DNA from: Ostreococcus lucimarinus
Lineage: Eukaryota
Reading direction: 5' to 3' (one strand)
DNA length: 64,000 nt
Assembly (NCBI GenBank): GCA_000092065.1
Contig: CP000586.1
Part shown: positions 2,177 to 15,742 of the stretch, piece by piece
How the letters are laid out: every line of letters starts with the position of its first letter
Numbering within the stretch: position 1 is the stretch's first letter
Program-made: the position numbers and the translations under genes
Notes under the pieces: model-generated
What the model saw: the letters and a program-made list of their open reading frames with translations, nothing else
What the model was told of the DNA's origin: nothing
Database searches by the model: none

Positions 2177-2782
2177 ATGACTCCAACATCTCTCGACGTG
2201 CGGCTACTCGTTCGCGAGTTCAAGTCGTTGAAGCGACGCGAAGCCGACGACCTGATACGCAACCTCAAGATGGTGGGTGACGACGTAACCAAATGGACGT
2301 TTGAGCTGCATACGTTTGACACGACGTGTCCTGGTGGCAAAATGCTTATGAAGGACTTGGGAAGACTCCAGAAACGTGGTTTGGATCACATCCTCATGGA
2401 GGCGAACATGACTGCGCACGGTGGGTCTTGGCCAACCGACCCACCCCTCTTGCGCGTCGTGAAGCCTCGGATGAAGCTCTATACCGGCCACGTGACAGCG
2501 GGCGGCTCGATTTGCAGCGAAATGCTGGTAAATACTGGAGGTTCGAACGGTTGGAATCCTCGGTTGTCGATGGAAGCGATCATCGAGACAATCAAGCTGA
2601 ACATGGTGGATTGCGAAGTCGTCGAGATCGAAACTCCGTACAATGGCAGGCAGCGTGCGGGGCCGCTCCGAATAGATTTGAAGGGCGAGTATTCGTACGA
2701 CTGCATGAATGAATACTCTGAATTCGCTGCAATGGCTGCTTTTGATCGCGCAGTTGCGCACCATCGTCGTCATGGCTGGTAA
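2177..2782 (+). CDS. Ubiquitin-conjugating enzyme E2, UBE2Q-like, with atypical HPN region
   Basis: 201-aa ORF with a UBC-fold signature: N-terminal RLLVREFKSLK and active-site region TGHVTAGGSICSEMLV...GWNPRLSMEAIIETIKLNMV. This resembles UBE2Q H-V-IGG-x-C-MELL...GWS..YSIESVI. The catalytic Cys is present. Confidence 0.55.
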   Translation: MTPTSLDVRLLVREFKSLKRREADDLIRNLKMVGDDVTKWTFELHTFDTTCPGGKMLMKDLGRLQKRGLDHILMEANMTAHGGSWPTDPPLLRVVKPRMKLYTGHVTAGGSICSEMLVNTGGSNGWNPRLSMEAIIETIKLNMVDCEVVEIETPYNGRQRAGPLRIDLKGEYSYDCMNEYSEFAAMAAFDRAVAHHRRHGW

Positions 2783-3585
2783 CGATTGATTTCACTCCAG
2801 GCATCATTGATCGCTTGAGACACTCCCCGCACGCGTTCTTGGACTTGATCCGCATCCTTGGGATCGAGATATTTTCCAAACTTTGCTGCAAATTTGTCTG
2901 GATGCCAACGCAGTGAAGCTTTCCTAAACGCCCTCTTGTACGCCGCCAGTGCGGTTGTTTTGGTATCATTCCACTGCTCCATCGCAGCCATCTGCGCGAG
3001 CATCGATTCCTCATCCGGAGGCCAAGGAATGTCGTGCGCGTGAATGAACATCGTCTCATCGCATCGATTAGTGAGTGTTTCAGCGATGCGCTTCTCCAAA
3101 GTCAACCAAGACGACTCATACTCTGACCACAGATGCAATAAGACGTACGCTTTGTCGTCGTCTCCGATTTGCGCGTCCAAAGCATCAGCCATCGCTGCAG
3201 CCGCACGCTCGGCGATTTCTTCCGCCTCGAGCTGACGAGAGCTATACGCGTTATCAATCGTGTCCATTTCGGTCAGGCGACGCTTGATCTCTTCCATCTC
3301 AGCTTCCATCGTCGCTCTCGCCTCGCGTTCTTCTCTCACCGAGCGCAAGCGACGCATCTGTTCCTCCGCTTCTCTTTGAATCCCTCGATTCCGAACGAAT
3401 CGCCCTCGAATCACCGCTCGCTCATTCGCCGCAAACTCGGCCGCTTTCGTTTCCTCATCATCCGTGTCACTTTCGCTCGACGACGACGAAGCGCGCGAGA
3501 GTCGACGACGAAGCGGATTGATGTACCGCCCCATGCGCTCCGACTCAACCGACCCCGCGCGCGTCCACGATCGGCGCGCGTTCAC
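2770..3585 (-). CDS. J-domain (DnaJ-like) protein with C-terminal J domain and acidic/coiled-coil N-terminus
   Basis: C-terminus AAYKRAFRKASLRWHPDKF...VQERVRGVSQAINDAWSEI matches the J-domain helix II-HPD-helix III. The N-terminal half is rich in E/R heptads. Confidence 0.5.
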   Translation of the reverse strand: MNARRSWTRAGSVESERMGRYINPLRRRLSRASSSSSESDTDDEETKAAEFAANERAVIRGRFVRNRGIQREAEEQMRRLRSVREEREARATMEAEMEEIKRRLTEMDTIDNAYSSRQLEAEEIAERAAAAMADALDAQIGDDDKAYVLLHLWSEYESSWLTLEKRIAETLTNRCDETMFIHAHDIPWPPDEESMLAQMAAMEQWNDTKTTALAAYKRAFRKASLRWHPDKFAAKFGKYLDPKDADQVQERVRGVSQAINDAWSEINRYQP

Positions 3586-3734
3586 GAATGATTTTTTCCT
3601 GTCGTCTCGCTCGTCTTCACGCGCGCGCGCTCGACCGCGCGCGCGTCGCGGTGTGCGTTATTGACTTCTTTTCAATCCGTAACGCCTTCGAGCGGAAGCG
3701 TCGCTCGCGCGTCACTCTCGCGCTCGACGACGCG

Positions 3735-4325
3735 ATGAACGGCGCGTACGAGGTGCGCCCGAACGCGCGCGCCGCGCGCATCGATGGCGAACGCTTGCCC
3801 GATCCTCCCGGCTACGTCCCGCGCGCGCTCGGCGCGAGCGACGGCGCGAGCGATCACGCCGCGCGCGCATCCTCCTCCTCCCGCGCGGCGTCGAGCGCGC
3901 CGACGACGACGATGGACGGCGCGGCGGTCGAGCTCGAACGAAGCAAACTCAGAGTGCGACGCGCGTACGCGTTCGCGCAGTCCAGCGTGTCGTCGATCGC
4001 GATGATGACGTTCATGATGTGGATGAGCGGCAACTCGGTGCAAGTCTTTAGCATCATGGTCGTCTTCGGCGGCGTCGCGCAGACGACGCGAGCGATCCTG
4101 AGCTCGCGAGCGACGTTCGATAGATTCGTCGATGGTGATGCGAGCGTGGACGTCACGGTGCCGAGGTTGATGTTTTGCGCGGTGCAGCTCGTGGGATTGT
4201 GCCTGGCGTTGCGCAAGCTCAACGTCATGGGTCTGTTGCCCACGCACGCGAGCGACTGGGCGAGCGGGATGAAGCCTCCGAGAGCGTTGGAGCGCGCGTT
4301 CGGCGACGTCGAGCTCGACCTTTAA
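3735..4325 (+). CDS. EMC4: ER membrane protein complex subunit 4 (EMC4/TMEM85)
   Basis: MMTFMMWMSGNSVQVFSIMVV and the C-terminal MGLLPTHASDW motif are highly characteristic of EMC4. Start taken at ATG 3735. The ORF opens at 3588 but the upstream part is low-complexity. Confidence 0.7.
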   Translation: MNGAYEVRPNARAARIDGERLPDPPGYVPRALGASDGASDHAARASSSSRAASSAPTTTMDGAAVELERSKLRVRRAYAFAQSSVSSIAMMTFMMWMSGNSVQVFSIMVVFGGVAQTTRAILSSRATFDRFVDGDASVDVTVPRLMFCAVQLVGLCLALRKLNVMGLLPTHASDWASGMKPPRALERAFGDVELDL

Positions 4326-4527: not shown

Positions 4528-5049
4528 ATGTCCTCCCTCATCACCGCGCGTCTAGCGCAAGAGCGCAAAGATTGGCGCAAAGACCACCCGCACGGCTTCA
4601 TCGCGAAACCGTCGACGAAGAAGGATAAAAACGGTGACACCACCACCGATCTCACGGTGTGGAACTGCGCGATCCCTGGAAAGGCTGATACGCCCTGGGC
4701 GGGGGGATCGTACCCGCTGCGGTTGGAGTTTGGTAACGATTATCCGGCGAAGCCACCTCGAGTGGCGTTCCCAGCTGGATTCTTTCACCCAAACGTGTAC
4801 CCGACGGGTAAGGTGTGCCTGTCGATTTTGAACGAGGATAAGGGATGGAAACCGTCGGTGTCGATCAAACAAATCTTGATCGGGGTGCAGGACTTGCTAG
4901 ATTCGCCGAATATGAGCGATCCGGCGCAGCAAGAGGCGTACGATCAACTGCGAAGATCAAAGGCGACGTACCTGAAGAGAATCAAAGAGCAGGCGAAAAA
5001 GTTTGGAAGCGCATCTGGGGGGGCTGGGGATGAGATCATCGTGCTTTGA
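4528..5049 (+). CDS. UBC9: SUMO-conjugating enzyme UBC9 (SCE1)
   Basis: MSSLITARLAQERKDWRKDHPHGFIAKP...WNCAIPGK...HPNVYPTGKVCLSIL...KPSVSIKQILIGVQDLL is near-identical in pattern to UBC9. ATG verified at 4528. Confidence 0.9.
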   Translation: MSSLITARLAQERKDWRKDHPHGFIAKPSTKKDKNGDTTTDLTVWNCAIPGKADTPWAGGSYPLRLEFGNDYPAKPPRVAFPAGFFHPNVYPTGKVCLSILNEDKGWKPSVSIKQILIGVQDLLDSPNMSDPAQQEAYDQLRRSKATYLKRIKEQAKKFGSASGGAGDEIIVL

Positions 5050-5234: not shown

Positions 5235-6419
5235 TCATTCGTTCGTCTCATCGTGTAGTCGTTTCAGAAACTGCATGATGTCCACGTACTGGGCAGTTTT
5301 AAAGGTCTCTTTGTGAGCCTCAAACAGCTGTAGAATCACGTGAAGACGAGCGCGATCGGCTTCTGGCGACCAACCTTTCTTTGAGCGCAGATACTGTCTC
5401 AAATCACGATATCGGCGCTCTAAGCCGATCGGGTCCTCGTATCGACGATCAGCCATCGCATCACTATGCTCCCAGGCATCGCGCAAACTCGTCAGGAGAT
5501 CATCGATATCGTAAACCAGAGCCGCCTCATCTATGAGGTATTTTGTCATTGGGATGTCAAGATTTTCGCAAGCTTGAGAGACAAAGTACGGTTGTAACAC
5601 GAGACCCATTTCATCGCGAAAGATCTTCAGTAAAGTGACGTTCGATCGAAGAACCGCGCACTCCATATGCGACGCGTCTGGCTGCACACCACCTTCGTTC
5701 TTCAACCAGCGAAGCAAATCAGCGCTTCGCGATTCGCGATCCGCCGATCCCCAAGAGTTGATAATAGTGTTCACATTCCTTAGCTCAGGCTTCGCGCCTT
5801 GATCTTTCAAAACCTTCAAGAAATCTATCACAGAGTGCTTGTGATATGATCCGTTCGAGATGATGTCGTTGAAAAAGTCGTTGAGAATGAAAGGTGAAGA
5901 TTCTGGAAATGATTTCGCTGCACATTCCTCAAAAATGCATCGGAACGTTTCCAGCCGATTTAAGCGCACCGCCACTCGCATCGCTTGTTTTCCATCGTAC
6001 GACACCGCGTGCTCGCGCATAAACTTCAGCAAATCTCGAAGCTTTTCCGCGTCGCTCTCATCTTCAAACAATCTAGATAGCAACGATTCATAAAAGTTGC
6101 GCTGCCAGTGCGTGTTTACCGATACACAGTGTCCGCATTTGACTCTTACGGCGTCGTAGAGGCACTTGCACGAGGGCAGCGGCGGTGGCGGCGCGGTGGT
6201 GTTCGTCGCGACTTCCTGTGCCGTACACGTCGTCGCGTTCGCCTTCGACGCGCTCTCCTCCGTCGTCGCTCGCACGCATCGGCTCTCGACAGCTTTCGCT
6301 TTCGGTGCCGGTGCCGGCTTCTTGGAACTGCTCGTCTTCGCTTTTTTACGCGACGCCGTCGTCTTCGCGCCGGCGGCGCCACCGGCGCGTCGCCATCGTC
6401 GAACCGGTGGCGTCGCCAT
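5235..6419 (-). CDS. Hypothetical protein, paralogue A of an unknown family (basic N-terminus, CxCx9CxxC motif, conserved C-terminal EAHKETFKTAQYVDIMQFLKRLHDE)
   Basis: 394-aa ORF with no recognisable domain. Shares CxC..CxxC, ETFRCI and C-terminal E-H-K-x-x-x-x-x-x-YVxIMxFLxRxHDE motifs with the adjacent gene 6600..8284. Confidence 0.4.
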   Translation of the reverse strand: MATPPVRRWRRAGGAAGAKTTASRKKAKTSSSKKPAPAPKAKAVESRCVRATTEESASKANATTCTAQEVATNTTAPPPPLPSCKCLYDAVRVKCGHCVSVNTHWQRNFYESLLSRLFEDESDAEKLRDLLKFMREHAVSYDGKQAMRVAVRLNRLETFRCIFEECAAKSFPESSPFILNDFFNDIISNGSYHKHSVIDFLKVLKDQGAKPELRNVNTIINSWGSADRESRSADLLRWLKNEGGVQPDASHMECAVLRSNVTLLKIFRDEMGLVLQPYFVSQACENLDIPMTKYLIDEAALVYDIDDLLTSLRDAWEHSDAMADRRYEDPIGLERRYRDLRQYLRSKKGWSPEADRARLHVILQLFEAHKETFKTAQYVDIMQFLKRLHDETNE

Positions 6420-6599
6420 CGTCGTCGCGCCGAACGTGAGTTTCCTTCGTATGAAGCGAAGAATGGTGAGTTCGAGCGCGCGCGAGCGCGCGTGACGCGT
6501 CGATGTGTGGAGTGCGGCGCGTCGTGCGTGATTTACAAGGCGTGATTCACAGGCAAACAGGCTGTTCGCCGCGGACAGGCTGTTCCGCTGTAGCCGCGG

Positions 6600-8284
6600 C
6601 TACAGGGGACGGAACAAGCCAGCGAATGGCATGTCGGCCATCAACATCGCGTTTCTTTCCGAGAGAATTCCGTCGATTTCGTTGCGCAGGAGGTGGTCTT
6701 TTGCATTCTCCGCAGCTTTGTCATGTTGGCGCTGAAGGTACTTCATGACGCCGATGAACACACCTTCGCTCAAAGATGTTTTGTGCTCTTCGACGATTTC
6801 GTACAGAGCGTTAATGTGTTTTTTGTCTTCGTTTGCGACGGTATCAAGAGTTTCAAAGTAAATGATGAACTTCTCAACCTCGGTAAATGCGTTCTCTTCG
6901 TCGTTCTCAAGCATCTCCATAATCATTTCACCGTTGTCAACGGCTTCGATTAATTGTTCCTTCATCAAGCGAACAATGTCTGGATACTCTTTATAACCAT
7001 GCTCGACGACGTACTTGAGCATGTCCAGATTCAAATGATCTATGCAGCGATAGACGGTTTCCGGATAACCGGCGGGGGCGGCGGGGGTGAAAAACAAAAG
7101 ACCCCAATCCTCGTGGAGGGGTTGCACGAAAAGTGATTCAGGCAAGTCAAGCTCGAGCGAGAGCTCGACTGCAGTGCTCATTACTGCAGTTCTCATCTTT
7201 GGATCCGGGTGGTTAAGTCCCAGCCTGTCTCTATGAAGATGAAGATAGCGAAACATGAACCATCTTTCGAGGATGTCGCGATCGAGATCATCGTAACTTT
7301 GTTTGTTAATGTAGATTGAATCGTGCAGTGCGCGCATCGATTCAAACAAATGAAACAGAAAGGCGTCACCATGAGTCGCCACTGGAGAGTCGACTCGTCC
7401 CCAATGCGTTCGTTCGCGCAACCAATCCAGAAATTTGATGCGCGGGTCTATCTTCATAAGTTGTGCAAACTTCTCCGCGAGATACGTCGGACTTCCTTCG
7501 AGTTTTAGAGCCCCTTCGAAAACAATGTTTCGTCGTTTGTTCATCGCTTGCATATTTGGTCGTGTGAGCACCATCATGAACAAAAGTTCCGCGTCGGCCC
7601 GCCGATATTGAGGTGCATGGTTCACAAGTTCATCATACAACACCTTGAACAACTCGAACCTATCGTACCAATACGCGAGCCAACACGCCTCGAGGCGCGT
7701 TACGTAACCAGGTGCAAAACTCTTAAGTCCATGTTCTTTGATGGATGCTTCCAACCAAACAGGACGCCGCATATCTGCCTTGTTCTCGCCAACCCATGCC
7801 ACTATTTTTCTCATCGTTTCATCGTCGACGTGACGTTTCTCATACATCAATCGCCGCAACGCACTAGCCCACATCTCTCGTTTCGTTAGCAACGGTTTGC
7901 CCTTCAACTTACGCTTCACACATGACGCGCACTCCGCGACCAGCGCCGCCGCGAGCGTCTTACATTTCGTCTTGCCCAACTTATCCGCGCCTTCCTTTGT
8001 CAGCCGCGTGCACGGCGGCCGCTGCTCCGTCGACGACGACGCTCCAGTCTGCTTTACACCCTTGGACGCAGACGTCGACGCTTTAGTCGTCTTCGCCGCG
8101 TCTTCACCTCGTCGTGCGTTCGATTTCTTCGGCGGCGGCACATTTAAGATCGGATCGTGGTCTACGCTGAGCCCGTTGAGTCCTCTTCGCGCCATCAAGG
8201 CTTGGATGACACGAAGCGTGCACTCCCTGCAGTCGCACATCGGCTGATACATGCCCTCGCCCGCGCCAGGTCGTCCGGACATCG
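6600..8284 (-). CDS. Hypothetical protein, paralogue B of the same unknown family (start at ATG 8284; ORF is open to 8693)
   Basis: MSGRPGAGEGMYQPMCDCRECTLRV... then KCKTLAAALVAECASCVKRK. C-terminal IVEEHKTSLSEGVFIGVMKYLQRQHDK parallels the neighbour. About 560 aa, largely helical, W/Y/F-rich middle. Confidence 0.4.
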
Positions 8285-8533: not shown

Positions 8534-11500
8534 TCAAGACGTCTTCGGACGCAGGGGCATCGCGCTGCCATCCGACGTTCGAGTAAACTCGAACAGCACG
8601 GCTGGAGAACGGTAGATACGGATGAGAAGCCAATAAAGACGCTCCTCGAGAACAAAATCTCTCACTTGACGCGCGCTGTAAATATCGCTGCACAGCGAGA
8701 TGAGACGGTGCGTTGATGGCAAATCGACGTGCTGGATGCTGCCGACGAGATTGTTGGTGAAGCCTCGAACGATGGACGCCAAAGTTAAGATGTAGACGAC
8801 GTACACGCCCGTCAGACCACCAACAAATTGACTGAACGTCGCAAAAACGCCGGTCGGTACTTCGGATGAGATCAACACGATCTCAGGACCGTTCTCAAAC
8901 GCACTGCAGGGTCGCCACCAATCCAAACTCTGTCGATTCTCTTCCGAGGCTGCGAGGGGAACGACGTATGTTCCGCAATCGACGGACCACCACGGTGAGG
9001 TCGTGTTGTACCCATTCAGGGCAAGCGTGCAACTTATACTTTGTTGACTCGAATAATTCGGCACGGGCGAACCTTTGCCGTGCAAGTGCCAAACTCGCGG
9101 GTAAATGTTTTCCAAGAAGACATTGTTTTGTTCGCCGTTGAGCACTCTGATAAGCGCGGCGGCTTCGTCTTCTGCAAAGGTGTAGTCGACGCCTTCTGAA
9201 TATAAAATAGGATTATCCAGCGGTAAATGACGTTTAAACATCCAACCCGTGGTTAGTTTTGCACCACTTGAGAGAGACTTCTTCAAAGCCTCGATAGAAG
9301 GTGGAGGGGGCGACCAGACGGTGTCGCTGTCTTTCGCCAAACACGCCTCCTGTATTTGTCCAGGCTTGTTTATCATTGGTATCGGTCCATCCGTGCGAAG
9401 AGTCGACCACGGCATCGTTTCAATCGTTTTTCTGAATCCGCCTTCAAAGATTGGATACTTGAAGGTGTTTTCTGCTCCAATCAAGCTCATGTTGAACCGA
9501 ATATCGTAGACTGGATTGATGTCGACTTGTGGGTTTGATGTGCTGAATACGAAGAACGGCACGACCAACAGACTGAAAATGATCGTAAAAAGACCACCAC
9601 CCTCGAGGAAAACTTTTTTCCACCATGGTTGGGGTTGACCGAACGGATGATACTTTCTATAAGTGTTATTCCGGACGTTGATTCTGAACAAGTCACGCGA
9701 GATGTTCTCAAGCTTCAACCAGTCGTAAAGATCCAGGGCGCTGTCCGTGCAAGCATATTCGAGCAACACGCGTAATTCGTACATGAACGGAATCGAAAAG
9801 TACGCCATGAAAGCTCCAAAAGAAATAATATCAGAACGCTGGAAGATCAAGCTGTTCGTGAATACTTCAGCTGGGAACCCACAGCGTATTTGTCGCGCTC
9901 CGAGAGTGAACGACAACGACTTAAGGAGGAAAAAGAATTGCAAATACGAGTGACGTGCCGTCGTGTTCTGGTGGAAAATCATCAACAAAAATCCAACAAA
10001 TCCAGCATACGTCAAGTAGTGGTAGAAAACTTTGGCAATCTTTGCTTTTTTCATGTAAATCACTCCATCAACGACGATGAGTACCAAGCAAATGAAGACG
10101 GATACGACGTAGTCAATTTTGAACAAACCTTGATAGTATGTCTCCACCAATGCCTCTGCATCTGAGTCCACCGTGTTTTGATAGCAAATCGCCACGAAGA
10201 ATGTTGCGAGGATGTCGAAACAAAGCGTCGCGGTGTAAAAGTCCTGACCTTCTTGGTGGAAACCACGAACAGACGTGAGGCCAAGCGGGGCTACATCTGA
10301 GCCGCCAGCAGCTTCTCTGAGTTGCATCGCCTCAAGCGCTTTACTCGCCTCCGCACTAGGACGAAGGACGGAAACTGGGGCTATAACGCGGAATATTGCG
10401 GCACGATGTCCCGGGCTCGTTCGTAGACTATCGGTGTCTACTTGCACAAACTCGAGCGTGTAGTACGAAAGCGGTAGTTTTGAGCCACCTTCAGAAATCG
10501 TCTGGTGATTAATGAGTGCGTCGTTCACTCGGGCGACAATTTCATCCCAATCTGGCTCTGCATCTTCCTGTGCGAGGACTGAAAGCGCTACGAATGACGG
10601 ACCATACTCAGCTTCCGGAGTTAAGATTCGTTGGAAGAAATTATCCATTTCTGCTAGCAATCCTCGAGAGACTTCGATGTGGAAAGGTGAAGACTCAGAA
10701 TCGTCTTGGCGCGCGAAATTCATTTCAAATTCCGCAAAATGGACATTTTTAAACCTGGAAAACAGGGCGTTCGCGGCGAACAAGTCGCCGTTATTGCCCT
10801 CGTCACGCTCTTCGCGACGATGAATTTCATCTCTTGGTGTTTGCTGAGCGCTGTGGTGCACCGTGATGGCGATGTATGCCATGAACGCACCAATCATGGA
10901 AGGGACAAACGCACTACTGGCATCCTGGATACCGAACACGACTCCCGTATGAGCGCAGGCGGTCATACCCGAGCATTGCAAAGAACAAGGAATAGTAACA
11001 ACGTACGCAACGGCGAGCGATAATTCGGCGTACAAGAGAATCAATCGCCAAAATCCGGCAGGCACCACTGGATACGTCATCAGTCCGTATGCGATGATTG
11101 ACGTGGGAAAGACGAGAGCAGCGATGGAGAAATCGATGGCAAAAGCCAGTATCATGAAAAAATAGCACATTGAATACCGGGGTGCTGTCAACCACGGCCA
11201 TGCTTTCAAAAAGGCGCCAAATAATAAGCCAATTGTGGAGCTGCGATCACCAAGCCAGGTATGAAGTAAGGCTGTCAAATCCTTCTTCGGGTCATCCACA
11301 CTCGTGCGCATCTTCAGCTCGTGATCACGGAGTTGCGCTGCTCGCAAGTCCTGCCTTTCGGCGTTGTCTTCGTCTTCTCTGATCCATTCTTCATTGTTCT
11401 CATCGTCATCGCTGTCTCTGACGCCACGCCGACGGCGGATTGTATCACTTGGTGGCTTGCGGTCGCCCGTCGGTTTGCGACGAGTGCCTCGACTTTCCAC

Positions 11501-14500
11501 AGCGAGAATCTCTCGAGACAGACTTGTGATTTCGTTCCTGATGTCCTCTACTCTTTGACGACGATTTTCTTTCTCGCTCACCTTGGTCAAACAAGTTGCC
11601 AAACTTTCATGAATCCATCCCCGCTTCAACGCATCGTCGACAATGCGCTCCGCTTCAATGGACTGGCGACGCATAATCATCGCGGCTTTGTATGTGGGCT
11701 GAGTGATGATGCTTCTCAACAAGTGAACGATGGCAAAAATGACCAAATCCGGTGAAAGTTGACCAGACTGCCATCCGAGCACCGTGGGAAGCTTGTAAAA
11801 TCCAAAGCCTTGAAGTAGCGAACATTCAGACTCAACAGATACGTACCAGTCACCTAGTAAGCCTTCAAGCGGAGCTTGGTAAAGGAGAATCGCGCCGATG
11901 ACGGATACGTTGTACAGTTGCAAAATTCTCAAGCCCATCAGACTGTCCATACTCAAAGAATCGCGCGTACGGAGAAAATAGAATGGCAAAATCAAATAGC
12001 CAACGTGCATGAGATCTCGCGAAAAAGTGCCAAAGAAAATCACCATGACCAATGCCCAGTCAACTGCGTATCGCAAGTAAAAGTATCGCATCCATTCAAG
12101 GATGGTCCAATTTGTACTTGCTTCCCAGGTAAGCGGTGCGAATAAGATGTCAAAGTACGACGTCTCCTGCGTTTCCGGCGGGAGCAAAGCAACTTGTGTC
12201 GGTGTTTGCCTCGGTACCATCGTGGCGATCAACTCTGAAATCATAGCTTCATCTAACTCCGCGCCTTCTGCTTGCGTCGCCTCTATCGTCATTCGCGCGC
12301 GCTCTTCCAGAGCTGCTAAAATGGCATCCATCCTCAGTTGGCAAGCGGCGATAAAGAAAGCGCTAAAATAGCCAAACAGCATCATTTTGCTGCATGGGTA
12401 AACGGCAAGCCACTGTCTAGTCTCTCGTGAAAGCCGCATTTGTTCGCTCGCAGTGGAGAGGAGTGCCCGTGCAAACGACGGCGATGGTGGAGGAGACGGC
12501 GGAACGTCATCCACGCGGTTTTGCACGATATCAATCGAGACAACGTACTGCCATAGGACTATCAAGGCGCAGATCGCCGTAGTAAAGCGCCATAAGAGCA
12601 AGCGGTCACGCGGCGTGGACCCAAGCTTACTGTTAATCAACTTGAAAGTTACCCCTAAGTAGACGAGAGACAGCATGTTTGTAGACGCGATTCCGACAAT
12701 CGCAAAGACTACGTACAACAAACCTGGCATGAGATTCGCCATCATGCCTTCAATCATTTCAGGAACGATGGAAAGGAGCATAATCATCTGTCCCAGATTC
12801 GTTTGTGCATTTTCTCTCACTCGCTTAGTGAATTCGCGACGTGCCTCATCGCTCGCCGCACTTTCGCCTTCATCCGCGATGTCGGACGTGCTCTCCGAGA
12901 TTTCAGACATTGCTTTGTCATCTAAGTCGTCCATTTCCTTGCTTGCATCGGTGTTTTCCGTTTTTCGTTGAACAAGCATCGCTCGTGCGTCGCGTTGCGG
13001 CCAGAAGAGGTGACAAGGTTCAGGAGAACATCCAGATTTCAACGCCGGTGGTAGTTTCCTCAACCAGAAGCGTGTCGCCTTGGTCAACTCAACGGAAAGT
13101 ATCACCAGCACCGGATAGCGAAGCATGGATTCATTCTCTGGTATGAAATCACTCGGCGATTCTGGCCACTTATGCGCACCCAAGAGAGTCAAAATACCCC
13201 AATGTTGTCCCGCTTGAGTGTATTGAATCTTATAGGCGTAATCGATGATGGCAGAAATGAGTGCAACTGTACCAACCAGTTCGGTGGGACCATCGCTCGT
13301 TTTCATCGACAACGTCGCTGCGATGAGTGCTGCGAGCATCAATAATCCGAGCAAATCTCGGCGCTCGAGACTAAACAAGATTGCACAGAGGGTAACGATT
13401 TTATTTGTGTGCAAAATGATGGCTCGCTTCACAAGTGGCAGAAAGCCAAGCTCGGTTGCGGCCAACGGCAGACTTCGTCTCGCATCCACTGCATTGCTCA
13501 TCGTGAGCAATCCAATCTCGTGGAAATATGTTACGACGAGGAGAGTGCTCGGTCCGATCAATTCAGCCATGAGCTTGCCTGGCTCGACATTTTGCGCCAA
13601 CCCTACCGCGTTTGAGAGGAACGCCTTGAACTCGGTGGAGAATCCAAAAATTTCGTCGAGCGGGAAAGCGCCAAAGGCGTAACGACTCGCGAGATTGAAT
13701 AAACAGAACAACAGAACAGCGCGCCATCGACCGGACTCGGTTTCTTCTGAGTGCCGTTTAGCGATGCAATTCAATCCAAGGAGTACGAGAAGTGTCAAGT
13801 TTATCAGCGAACACTGCGACGTTTCGAGCGTCACCAGACCAACCAAGAGCACTAAATAAGCGCCAAAGCGCGTCATCAACTTCATGAGCACCAACGAGCA
13901 CTCGTACACTACGGCTTTACCCAAAGACACCAATGAGTTCAAGGTTCCCTGGCCAGGCGCACTATCTTCCTCAGTTTCCGGCGTCAGCGCGTTAAGGACC
14001 TTCTGCAGGTACAGCACGATGCAAATTACCACCAAAACGCAGGCGAAAGGTCCAGTCGTGTGAATCATGTTTGATTGCTCAAGGCCTAAAACACGCAATG
14101 TCGTCGCCCACTTCGTGTGGTACACATTGAATATATTAACGTGTTCATTCATCGCCCACAGATACAACGCCGCAACAAAGCCAGCGAGTGTTTGTGCCGT
14201 CAGATGCAATACCGTCCGGTCTCCCGGTTTGAGGATATTGAACAAGAATGCCAATAGCAATGCGGCGTGGAGTAAATCGGCTCGCGATAGAGCCACAATC
14301 CACAGTGCGAAGGGCACCAAGAGGTGTGAGATCAACTGAACTAAAGGCAAATCCCACATCAAGCGACTGTCGTCGACGGCCGGGTTATGCTCAATCTCAA
14401 GGTCATCTAATGGTACAAAATCCACAATGACACCATCCTGCACTCTTTGTTCCAGAACGTCATCCGTCGGGGTACTCTTGGCGTTCTTTGTGAGCCAACC

Positions 14501-15742
14501 GACAAAGGTGAGCGTGGCTACTAAACTGCCCATATAACACGCGTTAATGCCCGATTGCTCGCCGTTGTGCGCTGGCGATGCACCGAATATTTGTAGCAAA
14601 ACTCTTACTTTGCCGTTCATGGATGACATCATCACTGGTGGAATGCAAAGCAGGGCGTACTCTCCAACGCTCCAAAGCGCGACGTAGGCGAAAATCACCG
14701 GACCGTGCACGTTCGCAAACGTCGTGTGACGCGTTGGGTTCACGACGAGAATCAATCCTAGCAAAAGCATGGGGTACGCAATTACGTTAACGACGAGTAA
14801 TGACGTCGCGAGTAACGTAAAGCCAGCCAAGACGCCGCCAAATCGAGCCAGCAAGCGGGCGACTGTTCCCGCGTCATCGTAGGTGTCCACGACGTCTGCA
14901 TCTGAAGCTGACTCCCCCTCCATCAAAGGCGCTCTAATACCTTCACCGTCTGCGGTATCGTAATCGCTGTCGTGTGACTCCACCGCACACAGCGCCATGA
15001 ATAGCCCGCCGATAGCGATGATTTGCGTCAAACGCAACAATCGCGCCACCGGCCCTTCCGTCCTATCCATCGAATACAACCCAAGCAACTGCGCCGAAGA
15101 CTCTCGCGCCGCGTCTTGCAACTCCGGTAACTGATACATGTAAATTGCCATGAAATGAATCGCGGTGTAGCACAAGCACGCCACCGTGGCCCTTCGCGGA
15201 AGATTTAATAAACTCTCGCGCGCACCTTGAAATTTGCCACCGACGCCGCGCCGCATCTCAGTTGCGAAATACGACACCACGAATAATAAATACATCATCG
15301 ACGACAGTGAAGGCACTGTCACCGCCGCTAACGCCGCCGTACACACCGTCACGCGCATCACCGTCTCCTTATCGCTCACTGTCGTCGCAAACGCCCCTTC
15401 CGCGTCGCCGCCGTCGAGCGCGCTCGCGCGCTCGCTCGCCCCATCCACGTACAGCTTACTTCCTCCCGCGAGCGCGATCCCGAAATAAGGCACAAAGAAC
15501 AGCACGTAGTCTATGATGCCATCCAATCTTCCGAACCCTAAATACCGCAGCGCGTCCGCTTGCCATGGATTCCTCGGCCACGCCGCTCCGAAACCGACGT
15601 AACACGCCTGCGTCGCGCAATTCCCCAACAGCACGAACGCACACAGCCCCATCACCCCCCACCACACGTCTCTCTGCACCCGCGTCAGCGCGTGCGTATT
15701 CTTTCGTCCCTCGTGCACGCGTTCGATCGCGAACGCCGTCAA
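8534..15742 (-). CDS. PIEZO: Piezo-type mechanosensitive cation channel
   Basis: 2402-aa ORF with dozens of predicted TM helices. The C-terminal region contains the Piezo pore-module signature ...FGAFMAYFSIPFMYELRVLLEYACTDSALDLYDWLKLE (PF(x2)E(x6)W motif). Confidence 0.8.
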   Translation of the reverse strand: MTAFAIERVHEGRKNTHALTRVQRDVWWGVMGLCAFVLLGNCATQACYVGFGAAWPRNPWQADALRYLGFGRLDGIIDYVLFFVPYFGIALAGGSKLYVDGASERASALDGGDAEGAFATTVSDKETVMRVTVCTAALAAVTVPSLSSMMYLLFVVSYFATEMRRGVGGKFQGARESLLNLPRRATVACLCYTAIHFMAIYMYQLPELQDAARESSAQLLGLYSMDRTEGPVARLLRLTQIIAIGGLFMALCAVESHDSDYDTADGEGIRAPLMEGESASDADVVDTYDDAGTVARLLARFGGVLAGFTLLATSLLVVNVIAYPMLLLGLILVVNPTRHTTFANVHGPVIFAYVALWSVGEYALLCIPPVMMSSMNGKVRVLLQIFGASPAHNGEQSGINACYMGSLVATLTFVGWLTKNAKSTPTDDVLEQRVQDGVIVDFVPLDDLEIEHNPAVDDSRLMWDLPLVQLISHLLVPFALWIVALSRADLLHAALLLAFLFNILKPGDRTVLHLTAQTLAGFVAALYLWAMNEHVNIFNVYHTKWATTLRVLGLEQSNMIHTTGPFACVLVVICIVLYLQKVLNALTPETEEDSAPGQGTLNSLVSLGKAVVYECSLVLMKLMTRFGAYLVLLVGLVTLETSQCSLINLTLLVLLGLNCIAKRHSEETESGRWRAVLLFCLFNLASRYAFGAFPLDEIFGFSTEFKAFLSNAVGLAQNVEPGKLMAELIGPSTLLVVTYFHEIGLLTMSNAVDARRSLPLAATELGFLPLVKRAIILHTNKIVTLCAILFSLERRDLLGLLMLAALIAATLSMKTSDGPTELVGTVALISAIIDYAYKIQYTQAGQHWGILTLLGAHKWPESPSDFIPENESMLRYPVLVILSVELTKATRFWLRKLPPALKSGCSPEPCHLFWPQRDARAMLVQRKTENTDASKEMDDLDDKAMSEISESTSDIADEGESAASDEARREFTKRVRENAQTNLGQMIMLLSIVPEMIEGMMANLMPGLLYVVFAIVGIASTNMLSLVYLGVTFKLINSKLGSTPRDRLLLWRFTTAICALIVLWQYVVSIDIVQNRVDDVPPSPPPSPSFARALLSTASEQMRLSRETRQWLAVYPCSKMMLFGYFSAFFIAACQLRMDAILAALEERARMTIEATQAEGAELDEAMISELIATMVPRQTPTQVALLPPETQETSYFDILFAPLTWEASTNWTILEWMRYFYLRYAVDWALVMVIFFGTFSRDLMHVGYLILPFYFLRTRDSLSMDSLMGLRILQLYNVSVIGAILLYQAPLEGLLGDWYVSVESECSLLQGFGFYKLPTVLGWQSGQLSPDLVIFAIVHLLRSIITQPTYKAAMIMRRQSIEAERIVDDALKRGWIHESLATCLTKVSEKENRRQRVEDIRNEITSLSREILAVESRGTRRKPTGDRKPPSDTIRRRRGVRDSDDDENNEEWIREDEDNAERQDLRAAQLRDHELKMRTSVDDPKKDLTALLHTWLGDRSSTIGLLFGAFLKAWPWLTAPRYSMCYFFMILAFAIDFSIAALVFPTSIIAYGLMTYPVVPAGFWRLILLYAELSLAVAYVVTIPCSLQCSGMTACAHTGVVFGIQDASSAFVPSMIGAFMAYIAITVHHSAQQTPRDEIHRREERDEGNNGDLFAANALFSRFKNVHFAEFEMNFARQDDSESSPFHIEVSRGLLAEMDNFFQRILTPEAEYGPSFVALSVLAQEDAEPDWDEIVARVNDALINHQTISEGGSKLPLSYYTLEFVQVDTDSLRTSPGHRAAIFRVIAPVSVLRPSAEASKALEAMQLREAAGGSDVAPLGLTSVRGFHQEGQDFYTATLCFDILATFFVAICYQNTVDSDAEALVETYYQGLFKIDYVVSVFICLVLIVVDGVIYMKKAKIAKVFYHYLTYAGFVGFLLMIFHQNTTARHSYLQFFFLLKSLSFTLGARQIRCGFPAEVFTNSLIFQRSDIISFGAFMAYFSIPFMYELRVLLEYACTDSALDLYDWLKLENISRDLFRINVRNNTYRKYHPFGQPQPWWKKVFLEGGGLFTIIFSLLVVPFFVFSTSNPQVDINPVYDIRFNMSLIGAENTFKYPIFEGGFRKTIETMPWSTLRTDGPIPMINKPGQIQEACLAKDSDTVWSPPPPSIEALKKSLSSGAKLTTGWMFKRHLPLDNPILYSEGVDYTFAEDEAAALIRVLNGEQNNVFLENIYPRVWHLHGKGSPVPNYSSQQSISCTLALNGYNTTSPWWSVDCGTYVVPLAASEENRQSLDWWRPCSAFENGPEIVLISSEVPTGVFATFSQFVGGLTGVYVVYILTLASIVRGFTNNLVGSIQHVDLPSTHRLISLCSDIYSARQVRDFVLEERLYWLLIRIYRSPAVLFEFTRTSDGSAMPLRPKTS

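What the first reader, a model, noticed from the sequence alone, without database searches (positions are those of the whole stretch)
5235..8284. Tandem pair of diverged paralogues of an uncharacterised Cx(8-10)CxxC protein family
Two same-strand neighbours (394 aa and about 560 aa) share three things. First, an N-terminal CxC-x(8-10)-CxxC motif (CKCLYDAVRVKCGHC versus CDCRECTLRV / CKTLAAALVAECASC). Second, an internal ETFRCI / ETVYRCI motif. Third, a C-terminal E-[AE]-HK-x6-[YF]-[VI]-x-[IV]-M-x-[FY]-L-x-R-x-HD-[EK] block. I do not recognise the family. This is a local gene duplication followed by strong divergence, possibly a lineage-specific zinc-binding regulator.
Basis: seen in the sequence. 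Interest (0 to 1): 0.55.

Follow-up and report, generated by a model that had tools for sequence, protein, structure and literature searches.

The report
Ostreococcus ankyrin-like gene pair, one hypervariable
Two neighbouring genes of the tiny marine alga Ostreococcus lucimarinus are old, distant copies of a genus-restricted ankyrin-repeat-like protein family; one copy is conserved, and the other accumulates almost only amino-acid-changing mutations in wild populations, as genes in a molecular arms race do.

Summary
The pair is real. S (window 5235-6419, minus strand, 394 aa) and L (6600-8282, minus strand, 560 aa) are paralogues: BLASTP gives two collinear segments (E 1e-5 and 9e-5) and profile-profile comparison gives E 1e-14.

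The ETFRCI/ETVYRCI match is not collinear.

The window is Ostreococcus lucimarinus. A search of 1.84 billion proteins found about 18 relatives; every named one is Ostreococcus.

No Pfam domain passes threshold. The AlphaFold model of S (residues 81-394, pLDDT about 88) and the profile hits both point to a degenerate ankyrin-type helical repeat. It sits between a basic, disordered, NLS-like tail with a small Cys knuckle and a C-terminal helical domain that has no known relative.

The S/L split is old, not a recent local duplication. The tandem order Piezo-L-S-UBC9 is kept in four Ostreococcus lineages; two others carry only S.

Across nine near-identical wild haplotypes, L has 28 nonsynonymous and 1 synonymous segregating codons, against 2 and 18 for S plus Piezo. 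So L is under diversifying selection.

Zinc binding, nuclear localisation and the biological role remain inferred.

The parts
5235..6419 (-). Gene S, 394 aa plus stop: the conserved, syntenic member of the family.
   Evidence: ORF. Orthologues of 43-93% identity lie between Piezo and UBC9 in six lineages. dN/dS 0.22 against the L003 lineage. 1 nonsynonymous and 8 synonymous segregating codons.
6171..6419 (-). S residues 1-83: disordered, basic N-terminal tail (pI 11.1) with the NLS-like motif KKAKT (residues 25-29, window 6333-6347). A 27-bp in-frame indel polymorphism lies at 6386-6412.
   Evidence: pLDDT below 50 for residues 1-80. KK[AP][KR]T is shared by the S clade, and K[KR]x[KR] is almost absent from the rest of the proteins. 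Indel.
6126..6170 (-). S residues 84-98, CKCLYDAVRVKCGHC: the Cys cluster (C-x10-C-x2-C), modelled as a short helical hairpin before the first repeat.
   Evidence: C84, C95 and C98 are invariant in 9 orthologues. pLDDT 80-88, helices at 87-92 and 96-101. Coordinates.
5520..6098 (-). S residues about 108-300: six or seven ankyrin-type helix-hairpin repeats, including the 'ETFRCI' helix at 5934-5951.
5238..5519 (-). S residues 301-394: the family-specific C-terminal helical domain, with the HK...RLH block at residues 367-391 (window 5247-5321).
   Evidence: hhalign S family against L family, E 1e-14. Regex match. No Pfam or PDB relative; only designed helical hairpins, E 0.003.
6600..8282 (-). 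Gene L, 560 aa plus stop (ABO96701.1 / XP_001418408.1, 'predicted protein'): the fast-evolving paralogue.
   Evidence: ORF. Exact match to the annotated protein. dN/dS 1.21 against the L003 lineage. 28 nonsynonymous and 1 synonymous segregating codons in 9 haplotypes. SNP density 1.96%.
8208..8237 (-). L residues 16-25, CDCRECTLRV: an L-only N-terminal CxCxxC motif. Copy number varies among L orthologues: 3 in O. tauri, 1 here, 0 in the L003 lineage.
7920..7964 (-). L residues 107-121, CKTLAAALVAECASC: the Cys cluster homologous to S residues 84-98.
   Evidence: Second BLASTP segment. MAFFT register. Coordinates.
7065..7919 (-). L residues about 122-406: expanded central helical region carrying most of the nonsynonymous polymorphisms.
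   Evidence: All-helical but low-confidence AF2 model. Variable codons 182-379. dN at or above dS in nearly all 40-codon blocks.
6708..7064 (-). L residues 407-525: C-terminal domain homologous to S residues 277-394, with the HK block at residues 498-522 (window 6717-6791). It includes 'ETVYRCI' at 7041-7061.
   Evidence: BLASTP E 1e-5. hhalign. Block 472-511 is 93% identical between lineages and carries no nonsynonymous SNP.
6603..6707 (-). L residues 526-560: acidic/helical C-terminal extension, shared with L orthologues and with the third O. tauri paralogue but absent from S.
   Evidence: Alignments.

Best explanation
**What is shown.**
- S and L are two anciently separated members of a small family known so far only from Ostreococcus and unnamed close relatives in marine metagenomes.
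- Each protein has four parts:
  - a disordered, lysine-rich N-terminal tail;
  - a short Cys cluster (C-x10-C-x2-C);
  - a degenerate ankyrin-type helical-repeat scaffold;
  - a family-specific C-terminal helical domain (the HK...RxH block).
- S is the ancestral syntenic gene and is kept under purifying selection.
- L keeps the Cys cluster and the C-terminal block but changes its amino acids at or above the neutral rate. This holds between lineages and, more strikingly, within a natural O. lucimarinus-like population.

**What is inferred.**
- The tail acts as a nuclear localisation signal or chromatin-contact tail.
- The cysteines form a small structural zinc knuckle that caps the repeat stack.
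- The repeats are a protein-binding surface.
- The shared C-terminal helical hairpin is a common docking or dimerisation module, possibly pairing S with L.
- On this reading, L is the adaptable binding partner. Its surface is driven to diversify by an antagonist, most plausibly prasinoviruses, or else by mating or self-recognition. S performs the conserved core role.
For: **Paralogy.**

**Family size and taxonomy.**
- 56 hits at E <= 1e-3 among 1.84 billion representatives. About 18 of these are true members; most of the rest are ankyrin proteins.
- The names found are O. lucimarinus, O. tauri and Ostreococcus sp. RCC789-like.

**Fold.**
- AF2 model of S: pLDDT about 88 for residues 81-394, all-helical hairpins.
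- 17 of 19 non-family profile hits scanned are Pfam ankyrin proteins and none is PPR.

**Synteny.** The order Piezo-L-S-UBC9-EMC4 is found in four lineages. Two further lineages have Piezo-S-UBC9.

**Tree.** S clade 100%, L-like supergroup 83%.

**Selection.**
- Window against L003: L has dN 0.235, dS 0.194, omega 1.21. S has omega 0.22, Piezo 0.13, UBC9 0.12.
- dN is at or above dS along L except in the HK block.
- Nine haplotypes: L has 28 nonsynonymous and 1 synonymous segregating codons, binomial p 0.007 against neutral expectation. S has 1 and 8; Piezo has 1 and 10. Fisher p 3e-10.
- The SNPs fall at codon positions 1/2/3 as 17/12/4, and no other reading frame makes them synonymous.
- SNP density in L is 2.3 times the intergenic density.
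- For scale, genome-wide piN/piS in O. tauri is about 0.2 (PMC5498103).

**NLS-like motif.** It is confined to the tail.

**C-terminal domain.** It resembles only designed helical-hairpin bundles.
Against: - No Pfam ankyrin model reaches its threshold. The best is Ank_2 at E 0.011, in one member.
- Foldseek ranks designed PPR proteins first (E 9e-5, but TM only 0.21-0.28). A consensus PPR scores 23 bits against the S profile, where a consensus DARPin scores nothing. The repeat class is therefore not unambiguous.
- The AF2 model of L is poor (pLDDT 48), so its fold is inferred from S.
- Only three cysteines are fixed in spacing, and three members lack the motif.
- The S/L rate asymmetry is weak in another lineage pair: L omega 0.49, S omega 0.43.
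- The population sample is nine metagenomic or assembly consensus haplotypes. The excess over neutrality is significant but moderate (p 0.007).
- No expression, localisation or interaction data were found.
Confidence: 0.5

Rival explanations
1. One reading: both proteins are lineage-specific zinc-finger transcription regulators, in which the Cys motif binds zinc and contacts DNA.
For: The C-x10-C-x2-C motif sits directly after a basic, NLS-like, histone-H1-like K/A/P-rich tail. There is a weak sub-threshold resemblance to the YABBY zinc finger: E 0.0056, 16.7 bits against a cut-off of 28.6.
Against: Only three cysteines have conserved spacing. The motif is altered or missing in P0065, P0066 and P0103. 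It is 15 residues out of 394-655. The large conserved parts are the repeat scaffold and the C-terminal helical domain, and neither resembles a DNA-binding domain.
Confidence: 0.15
2. They are divergent pentatricopeptide-like (PPR) helical-repeat proteins that bind organellar RNA.
For: Foldseek top hits are designed PPRs, E 9e-5 to 1e-3. The S-family profile hits dPPR10 (summed E 8.6e-7) and a consensus PPR (23 bits), through the 'GAKPE..N..I' / 'GGVQPD' segments.
Confidence: 0.1
3. L is a decaying or functionless duplicate drifting neutrally. The excess of amino-acid changes is only relaxed constraint plus sampling noise.
For: dN/dS is about 1.2 between lineages, which is not clearly above 1. 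One haplotype (L006) carries a 1-bp insertion that splits the ORF. L is absent from two lineages. L orthologues of O. tauri and O. lucimarinus are only 22% identical.
Against: An intact ORF of 550-655 aa is kept in four lineages whose synonymous sites are saturated and in 8 of 9 haplotypes. The Cys cluster and HK block stay conserved and free of nonsynonymous SNPs. Neutral drift cannot give 28 nonsynonymous to 1 synonymous changes, where the expected ratio is about 3.6:1 (p 0.007). It also cannot give an SNP density above the intergenic level.
Confidence: 0.1

Closest known systems
Ankyrin-repeat protein-interaction domains, for example the RNase L sensor domain 4g8k, the chloroplast ankyrin proteins 6jd6, and the vaccinia host-range factor K1L 3kea
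   Different: No Pfam ankyrin model passes threshold. Repeat lengths are irregular, about 28-37 residues. The scaffold is flanked by a Cys cluster and by a roughly 95-residue C-terminal helical domain with no known relative.
Pentatricopeptide repeat proteins (designed cPPR/dPPR 5orq and 6een; PRORP1)
   Same: Helical-hairpin repeats of about 35 residues with 'G-x-x-P-D' turns. Foldseek E 9e-5. Weak profile matches.
   Different: Poor global superposition, TM 0.2-0.28. No Pfam PPR hit. No natural PPR protein appears among the exhaustive-search hits.
Host or viral ankyrin-repeat genes that evolve under positive selection in host-pathogen conflicts (general knowledge, not tested here)
   Same: A repeat scaffold whose surface residues diversify while a conserved terminal module is retained. 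L shows 28 nonsynonymous to 1 synonymous polymorphisms with a conserved C-terminal block.
   Different: No link to viruses has been shown. No relative was found in IMG/VR viral contigs. The antagonist is unknown.

Membership tests
Ankyrin repeat superfamily (Pfam Ank, Ank_2-5) | The sequence matches a Pfam ankyrin model above its gathering score. | tested here: not met
   No ankyrin hit for window S or L at E <= 1. Among 9 members, one has Ank_2 at E 0.011 and Ank_3 at E 0.069, both below threshold.
Ankyrin repeat superfamily (Pfam Ank, Ank_2-5) | The three-dimensional fold is a stacked helix-turn-helix repeat that superposes on solved ankyrin domains. | tested here: met
Ankyrin repeat superfamily (Pfam Ank, Ank_2-5) | Profile-level sequence relationship to bona fide ankyrin proteins. 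| tested here: met
   The family HMM hits multi-repeat proteins at E 7e-13 to 1e-3 in 1.84 billion sequences. 17 of the 19 scanned carry Pfam ankyrin domains. Scores are summed over many repeats, so each single match is weak.
Pentatricopeptide repeat (PPR) family | Tandem 35-residue repeats matching Pfam PPR models. | tested here: not met
   No PPR family is listed even at E 10 for 9 members.
Pentatricopeptide repeat (PPR) family | A right-handed PPR superhelix that superposes on solved PPR proteins. | tested here: inconclusive
Zinc-finger or zinc-knuckle domains | Four metal ligands (Cys/His) at conserved spacing. | tested here: inconclusive
   C-x10-C-x2-C is present in 13 of 16 members. A fourth Cys lies upstream at a spacing that varies from 1 to about 35 residues. 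The motif is altered in P0065 and P0066 and absent from the P0103 model.
Zinc-finger or zinc-knuckle domains | Metal actually bound. | not testable with these tools
   This needs metal analysis of purified protein.
RNase L / Ire1 KEN domain (Pfam Ribonuc_2-5A) | A match above the gathering score covering the nuclease domain. | tested here: not met
   22.0 bits against a cut-off of 23.3. Only profile positions 34-77 of 127 are covered, and only 2 of 9 members match. Treated as chance.

The most novel reading that the evidence does not exclude
L is a previously unrecognised determinant of a host-antagonist or self-recognition conflict in Ostreococcus. Under this reading it would be a target or sensor of prasinovirus proteins, or a mating/compatibility factor. 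Its ankyrin-like surface is kept polymorphic by diversifying selection. It signals through the conserved C-terminal module, possibly by pairing with its invariant neighbour S, giving a 'variable sensor plus conserved partner' gene pair.
Probability: 0.15. Interest if true: 0.75.

Novelty: new variant of a known kind. Interest (0 to 1): 0.5.

Why it matters
Ostreococcus is a model for marine picophytoplankton and for alga-virus coexistence. Known resistance-linked variation is mostly placed on the small outlier chromosome.

Here a gene on an ordinary chromosome shows almost only amino-acid-changing polymorphism: 28 nonsynonymous to 1 synonymous, with piN/piS near 5. The genome-wide ratio in O. 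tauri is about 0.2. That makes L a concrete, testable candidate for a locus under conflict-driven selection. It sits beside a conserved paralogue that can serve as an internal control.

The work also gives a fold and a domain map to an orphan family that annotation pipelines label only as 'predicted protein'. It shows too that S has no exact counterpart in the NCBI protein set for O. lucimarinus.

Tried and rejected
- **Pfam scans of both proteins and of 9 and 14 family members.** Only sub-threshold, inconsistent hits: Ribonuc_2-5A, YABBY_N, Cas9_a, Phage_int_SAM_1. Rejected as chance.
- **PDB sequence searches.**
  - The S-family profile gave only a summed weak hit to dPPR10.
  - The L-family profile gave nothing.
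  - The C-terminal domain profile gave only designed helical bundles.
- **Word-indexed protein searches (3 used).** They found only close Ostreococcus relatives. The third, run with the mixed alignment, added nothing.
- **IMG/VR viral contigs.** No relative.
- **Literature.**
  - No paper cites the accessions.
  - A search for Ostreococcus with ankyrin and positive selection gave nothing relevant.
  - The O. tauri phosphoproteome supplements do not contain the UniProt ids or the GWSPER peptide.
- **AF2 model of L.** pLDDT 48, unusable, so no fold search was run on it.
- **afdb50 fold library.** Unavailable.
- **First neighbour-joining attempts.** One timed out. One gave NaN distances because the Kimura correction saturated. 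It was redone with a Poisson correction.
- **Hidden overlapping frame as the cause of the nonsynonymous excess.** Rejected: no other frame makes the SNPs synonymous.
- **Further copies in the window.** Rejected: only S and L match the family HMM in the six-frame ORFs.
Full report
**What is in the window.** Two minus-strand ORFs lie 180 bp apart.
- S is 5235-6419, 394 aa.
- L is 6600-8282, 560 aa.
The longer GTG-started ORF reaching 8693 runs into the 3' end of the upstream 2402-aa Piezo-like ORF (8534-15742).
- The 560-aa form is identical to the annotated O. lucimarinus CCE9901 'predicted protein' ABO96701.1 / XP_001418408.1. This identifies the window.
- The exact 394-aa S sequence is present in gene calls from JGI, ENA and Logan, including an 823,818-bp contig. 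No NCBI accession was returned for it.

**Are S and L related?** Yes.
- BLASTP gives two collinear segments. S 277-394 aligns with L 407-525 at E 1e-5. S 1-159 aligns with L 46-189 at E 9e-5.
- I collected orthologues from syntenic metagenomic contigs and compared the two orthologue alignments profile against profile. The result was probability 98.4% and E 1e-14 over the C-terminal 128 columns.

**The three motifs.**
- *Cys motif.* It is in register, and C84, C95 and C98 (S numbering; C-x10-C-x2-C) are invariant in all nine sequences. The leading CxC is not conserved.
- *C-terminal block.* It is real but has a 7-residue spacer, not 6. With that correction the pattern matches exactly twice in the six-frame translation of the window.
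- *ETFRCI / ETVYRCI.* This match is not collinear. S 157-162 aligns near L 205-215, and L 408-414 aligns with S 277-284.

**How big is the family?**
- The word-indexed searches found only Ostreococcus-level relatives.
- An exhaustive HMMER search of 1.84 billion representatives, using a six-sequence profile, found 56 proteins at E <= 1e-3.
- About 18 are true members or fragments of members. They include a third O. tauri paralogue on another chromosome, next to a Polo kinase gene (P0073 = CEF97441). They also include dispersed genes P0065, P0066, P0078, P0103 and P0106.
- Every name attached to a member or to its neighbours is Ostreococcus: O. lucimarinus, O. tauri, and a locus whose phosphoglucomutase clusters with Ostreococcus sp. 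RCC789.
- No relative was found in IMG/VR viral contigs.
- The window holds only these two copies.

**What is the fold?**
- No Pfam model passes its threshold.
- The AlphaFold2 model of S has a disordered segment at 1-80 and a confident (pLDDT about 88) all-helical body at 81-394. The body is built of helix pairs spaced 28-37 residues apart, followed by a C-terminal bundle of longer helices.
- Independently, the remaining hits of the exhaustive search match profile positions about 250-330 several times each. 17 of the 19 I scanned are bona fide Pfam ankyrin proteins, and none is PPR.
- Against this, Foldseek ranks designed PPR proteins first. However, the TM-scores are only 0.2-0.28. A consensus PPR also scores weakly against S profile positions 208-264.
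- I therefore call the scaffold a degenerate ankyrin-type helical repeat, with PPR as a minority alternative.
- The last 95 or so residues, which are the family signature, have no relative in Pfam or PDB. Only designed helical-hairpin bundles appear, at E 0.003.
- The AF2 model of L is too poor to use (pLDDT 48).

**The N-terminus.**
- The tail before the Cys cluster is basic (pI 9-12 in most members) and disordered.
- In the S clade it carries a conserved KK[AP][KR]T motif that fits the classical monopartite NLS pattern K[KR]x[KR]. That pattern is nearly absent from the much longer remainder of the proteins.
- Nuclear localisation is therefore an inference from sequence, not a result.
- Zinc binding is also only inferred. 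Three cysteines keep their spacing in 13 of 16 members, and a fourth lies upstream at variable distance.

**History of the pair.**
- The order SMC-DUF819-Piezo-L-S-UBC9-EMC4 is conserved in O. lucimarinus, a close sister lineage (L003), O. tauri (L001) and a fourth lineage (L004, L025, L026).
- Two further lineages have the same neighbourhood but only one family gene, of the S type, between Piezo and UBC9 (L007 and L008). By UBC9 identity, L007 is as close to the window as O. tauri is (0.86), while L008 is more distant (0.80).
- In a bootstrapped neighbour-joining tree, the S-type genes form a 100% clade. L groups at 83% with the dispersed paralogues P0073, P0103 and P0078.
- The S/L split is thus old. 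Whether L was added next to S in a subset of lineages or lost from two of them cannot be decided here.

**Selection.** This is the main new result.
- *Between lineages* (window against the sister lineage L003):

| Gene | dN | dS | omega |
|---|---|---|---|
| L | 0.235 | 0.194 | 1.21 |
| S | 0.056 | 0.256 | 0.22 |
| Piezo | | | 0.13 |
| UBC9 | | | 0.12 |

- dN is at or above dS in almost every 40-codon block of L. The exception is residues 472-511, the HK block.
- The O. tauri and O. lucimarinus orthologues are 22% identical for L and 49% for S.
- *Within the population.* A metagenome scan supplied seven more O. lucimarinus-like haplotypes with flanks. Counts of segregating codons among nine haplotypes:

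| Gene | Nonsynonymous | Synonymous |
|---|---|---|
| L | 28 | 1 |
| S | 1 | 8 |
| Piezo 3' part | 1 | 10 |

- For L, the binomial test against the neutral 78% expectation gives p 0.007, and piN/piS is 4.9. Fisher's test of L against S plus Piezo gives p 3e-10.
- More than half of the variant codons (15 of 27) are shared between haplotypes in mosaic combinations.
- The 33 SNP positions fall at codon positions 1/2/3 as 17/12/4. No alternative reading frame makes them synonymous.
- SNP density in L (1.96%) exceeds that of the intergenic DNA (0.86%).
- For scale, genome-wide piS is 0.01 and piN is 0.002 in O. tauri (PMC5498103).
- *Caveats.* The sample is nine consensus haplotypes. One of them (L006) carries a 1-bp insertion that may be a sequencing error or a null allele. 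In another lineage pair the asymmetry is small: L omega 0.49 against S omega 0.43.

**Interpretation.**
- *Shown:* paralogy, restricted distribution, the ankyrin-like model for S, conserved synteny, purifying selection on S, and diversifying selection on L with a protected C-terminal block.
- *Inferred:* a nuclear address, a structural zinc knuckle, the repeats as a binding surface, and the C-terminal helical hairpin as a shared docking or dimerisation module.
- The pattern in L is what a protein surface locked in a conflict would show. Prasinoviruses are the obvious candidate antagonist for this alga, and mating or self-recognition is another. Nothing here links L to either.

**Verdict.** The 'recent local duplication' and 'zinc-binding regulator' readings are not supported as stated. 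The family is best described as a new, genus-restricted variant of ankyrin-type repeat proteins. Interest is moderate, and it rests on the selection signal in L.

Noticed in passing
window 8534-15742 (-): A 2402-aa ORF with Piezo domains in its orthologues (THU_Piezo1, Piezo_THU9_anchor, Piezo_cap), apparently without introns. It lies directly upstream of L and is syntenic in all lineages examined.
   Followed up: partly
window 5235-6419 (-): The exact 394-aa S protein is found in JGI, ENA and Logan gene calls, but no NCBI accession was returned for it. L has one, so S may be missing or modelled differently in the public O. lucimarinus annotation.
   Followed up: partly
window 6386-6412: A 27-bp in-frame indel polymorphism in the N-terminal tail of S. 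The window and L018 read MATPPVRRWRRAGG, while most other haplotypes read MANGG.
   Followed up: partly
L006:10001-11693 (equivalent to window about 7310 and 7537): In a near-identical strain contig, the L gene carries a 9-bp in-frame insertion and a 1-bp insertion that splits it into 328-aa and 193-aa ORFs. This is either a long-read error or a natural null allele.
   Followed up: partly
window 8220-8237; L001:7948-8160: An L-only N-terminal CxCxxC motif (CDC[PRE]EC) varies from 0 to 3 tandem copies between Ostreococcus lineages. O. tauri has MCDCPECEAERAVCDCEECEAERADMCDCPEC.
   Followed up: partly
L013:2-586 and 738-1892: In another, unnamed lineage, a second partial family gene lies directly upstream of P0066 on the same strand. 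Tandem pairs of this family therefore occur at more than one locus.
   Followed up: no
window 3588-4325 (+): The EMC4-like gene shows dN/dS 0.80 against the sister lineage and 3 nonsynonymous to 1 synonymous polymorphisms. The number of changes is too small to interpret.
   Followed up: no
window 4528-5049 (+) and 2770-3585 (-): A SUMO-conjugating enzyme UBC9 (99% identical to the sister lineage) lies convergent with S. Further on is a 271-aa ORF ending in a J-domain-like 'LRWHPDKF' motif.
   Followed up: no
L009:7645-11383: The third O. tauri paralogue (P0073, CEF97441) lies directly downstream of a Polo-box kinase gene. One cluster member (OUS49267.1) carries the UniRef name 'DUF819 domain-containing protein', although DUF819 is the gene next to Piezo at the S/L locus. 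This may be a naming artefact.
   Followed up: no
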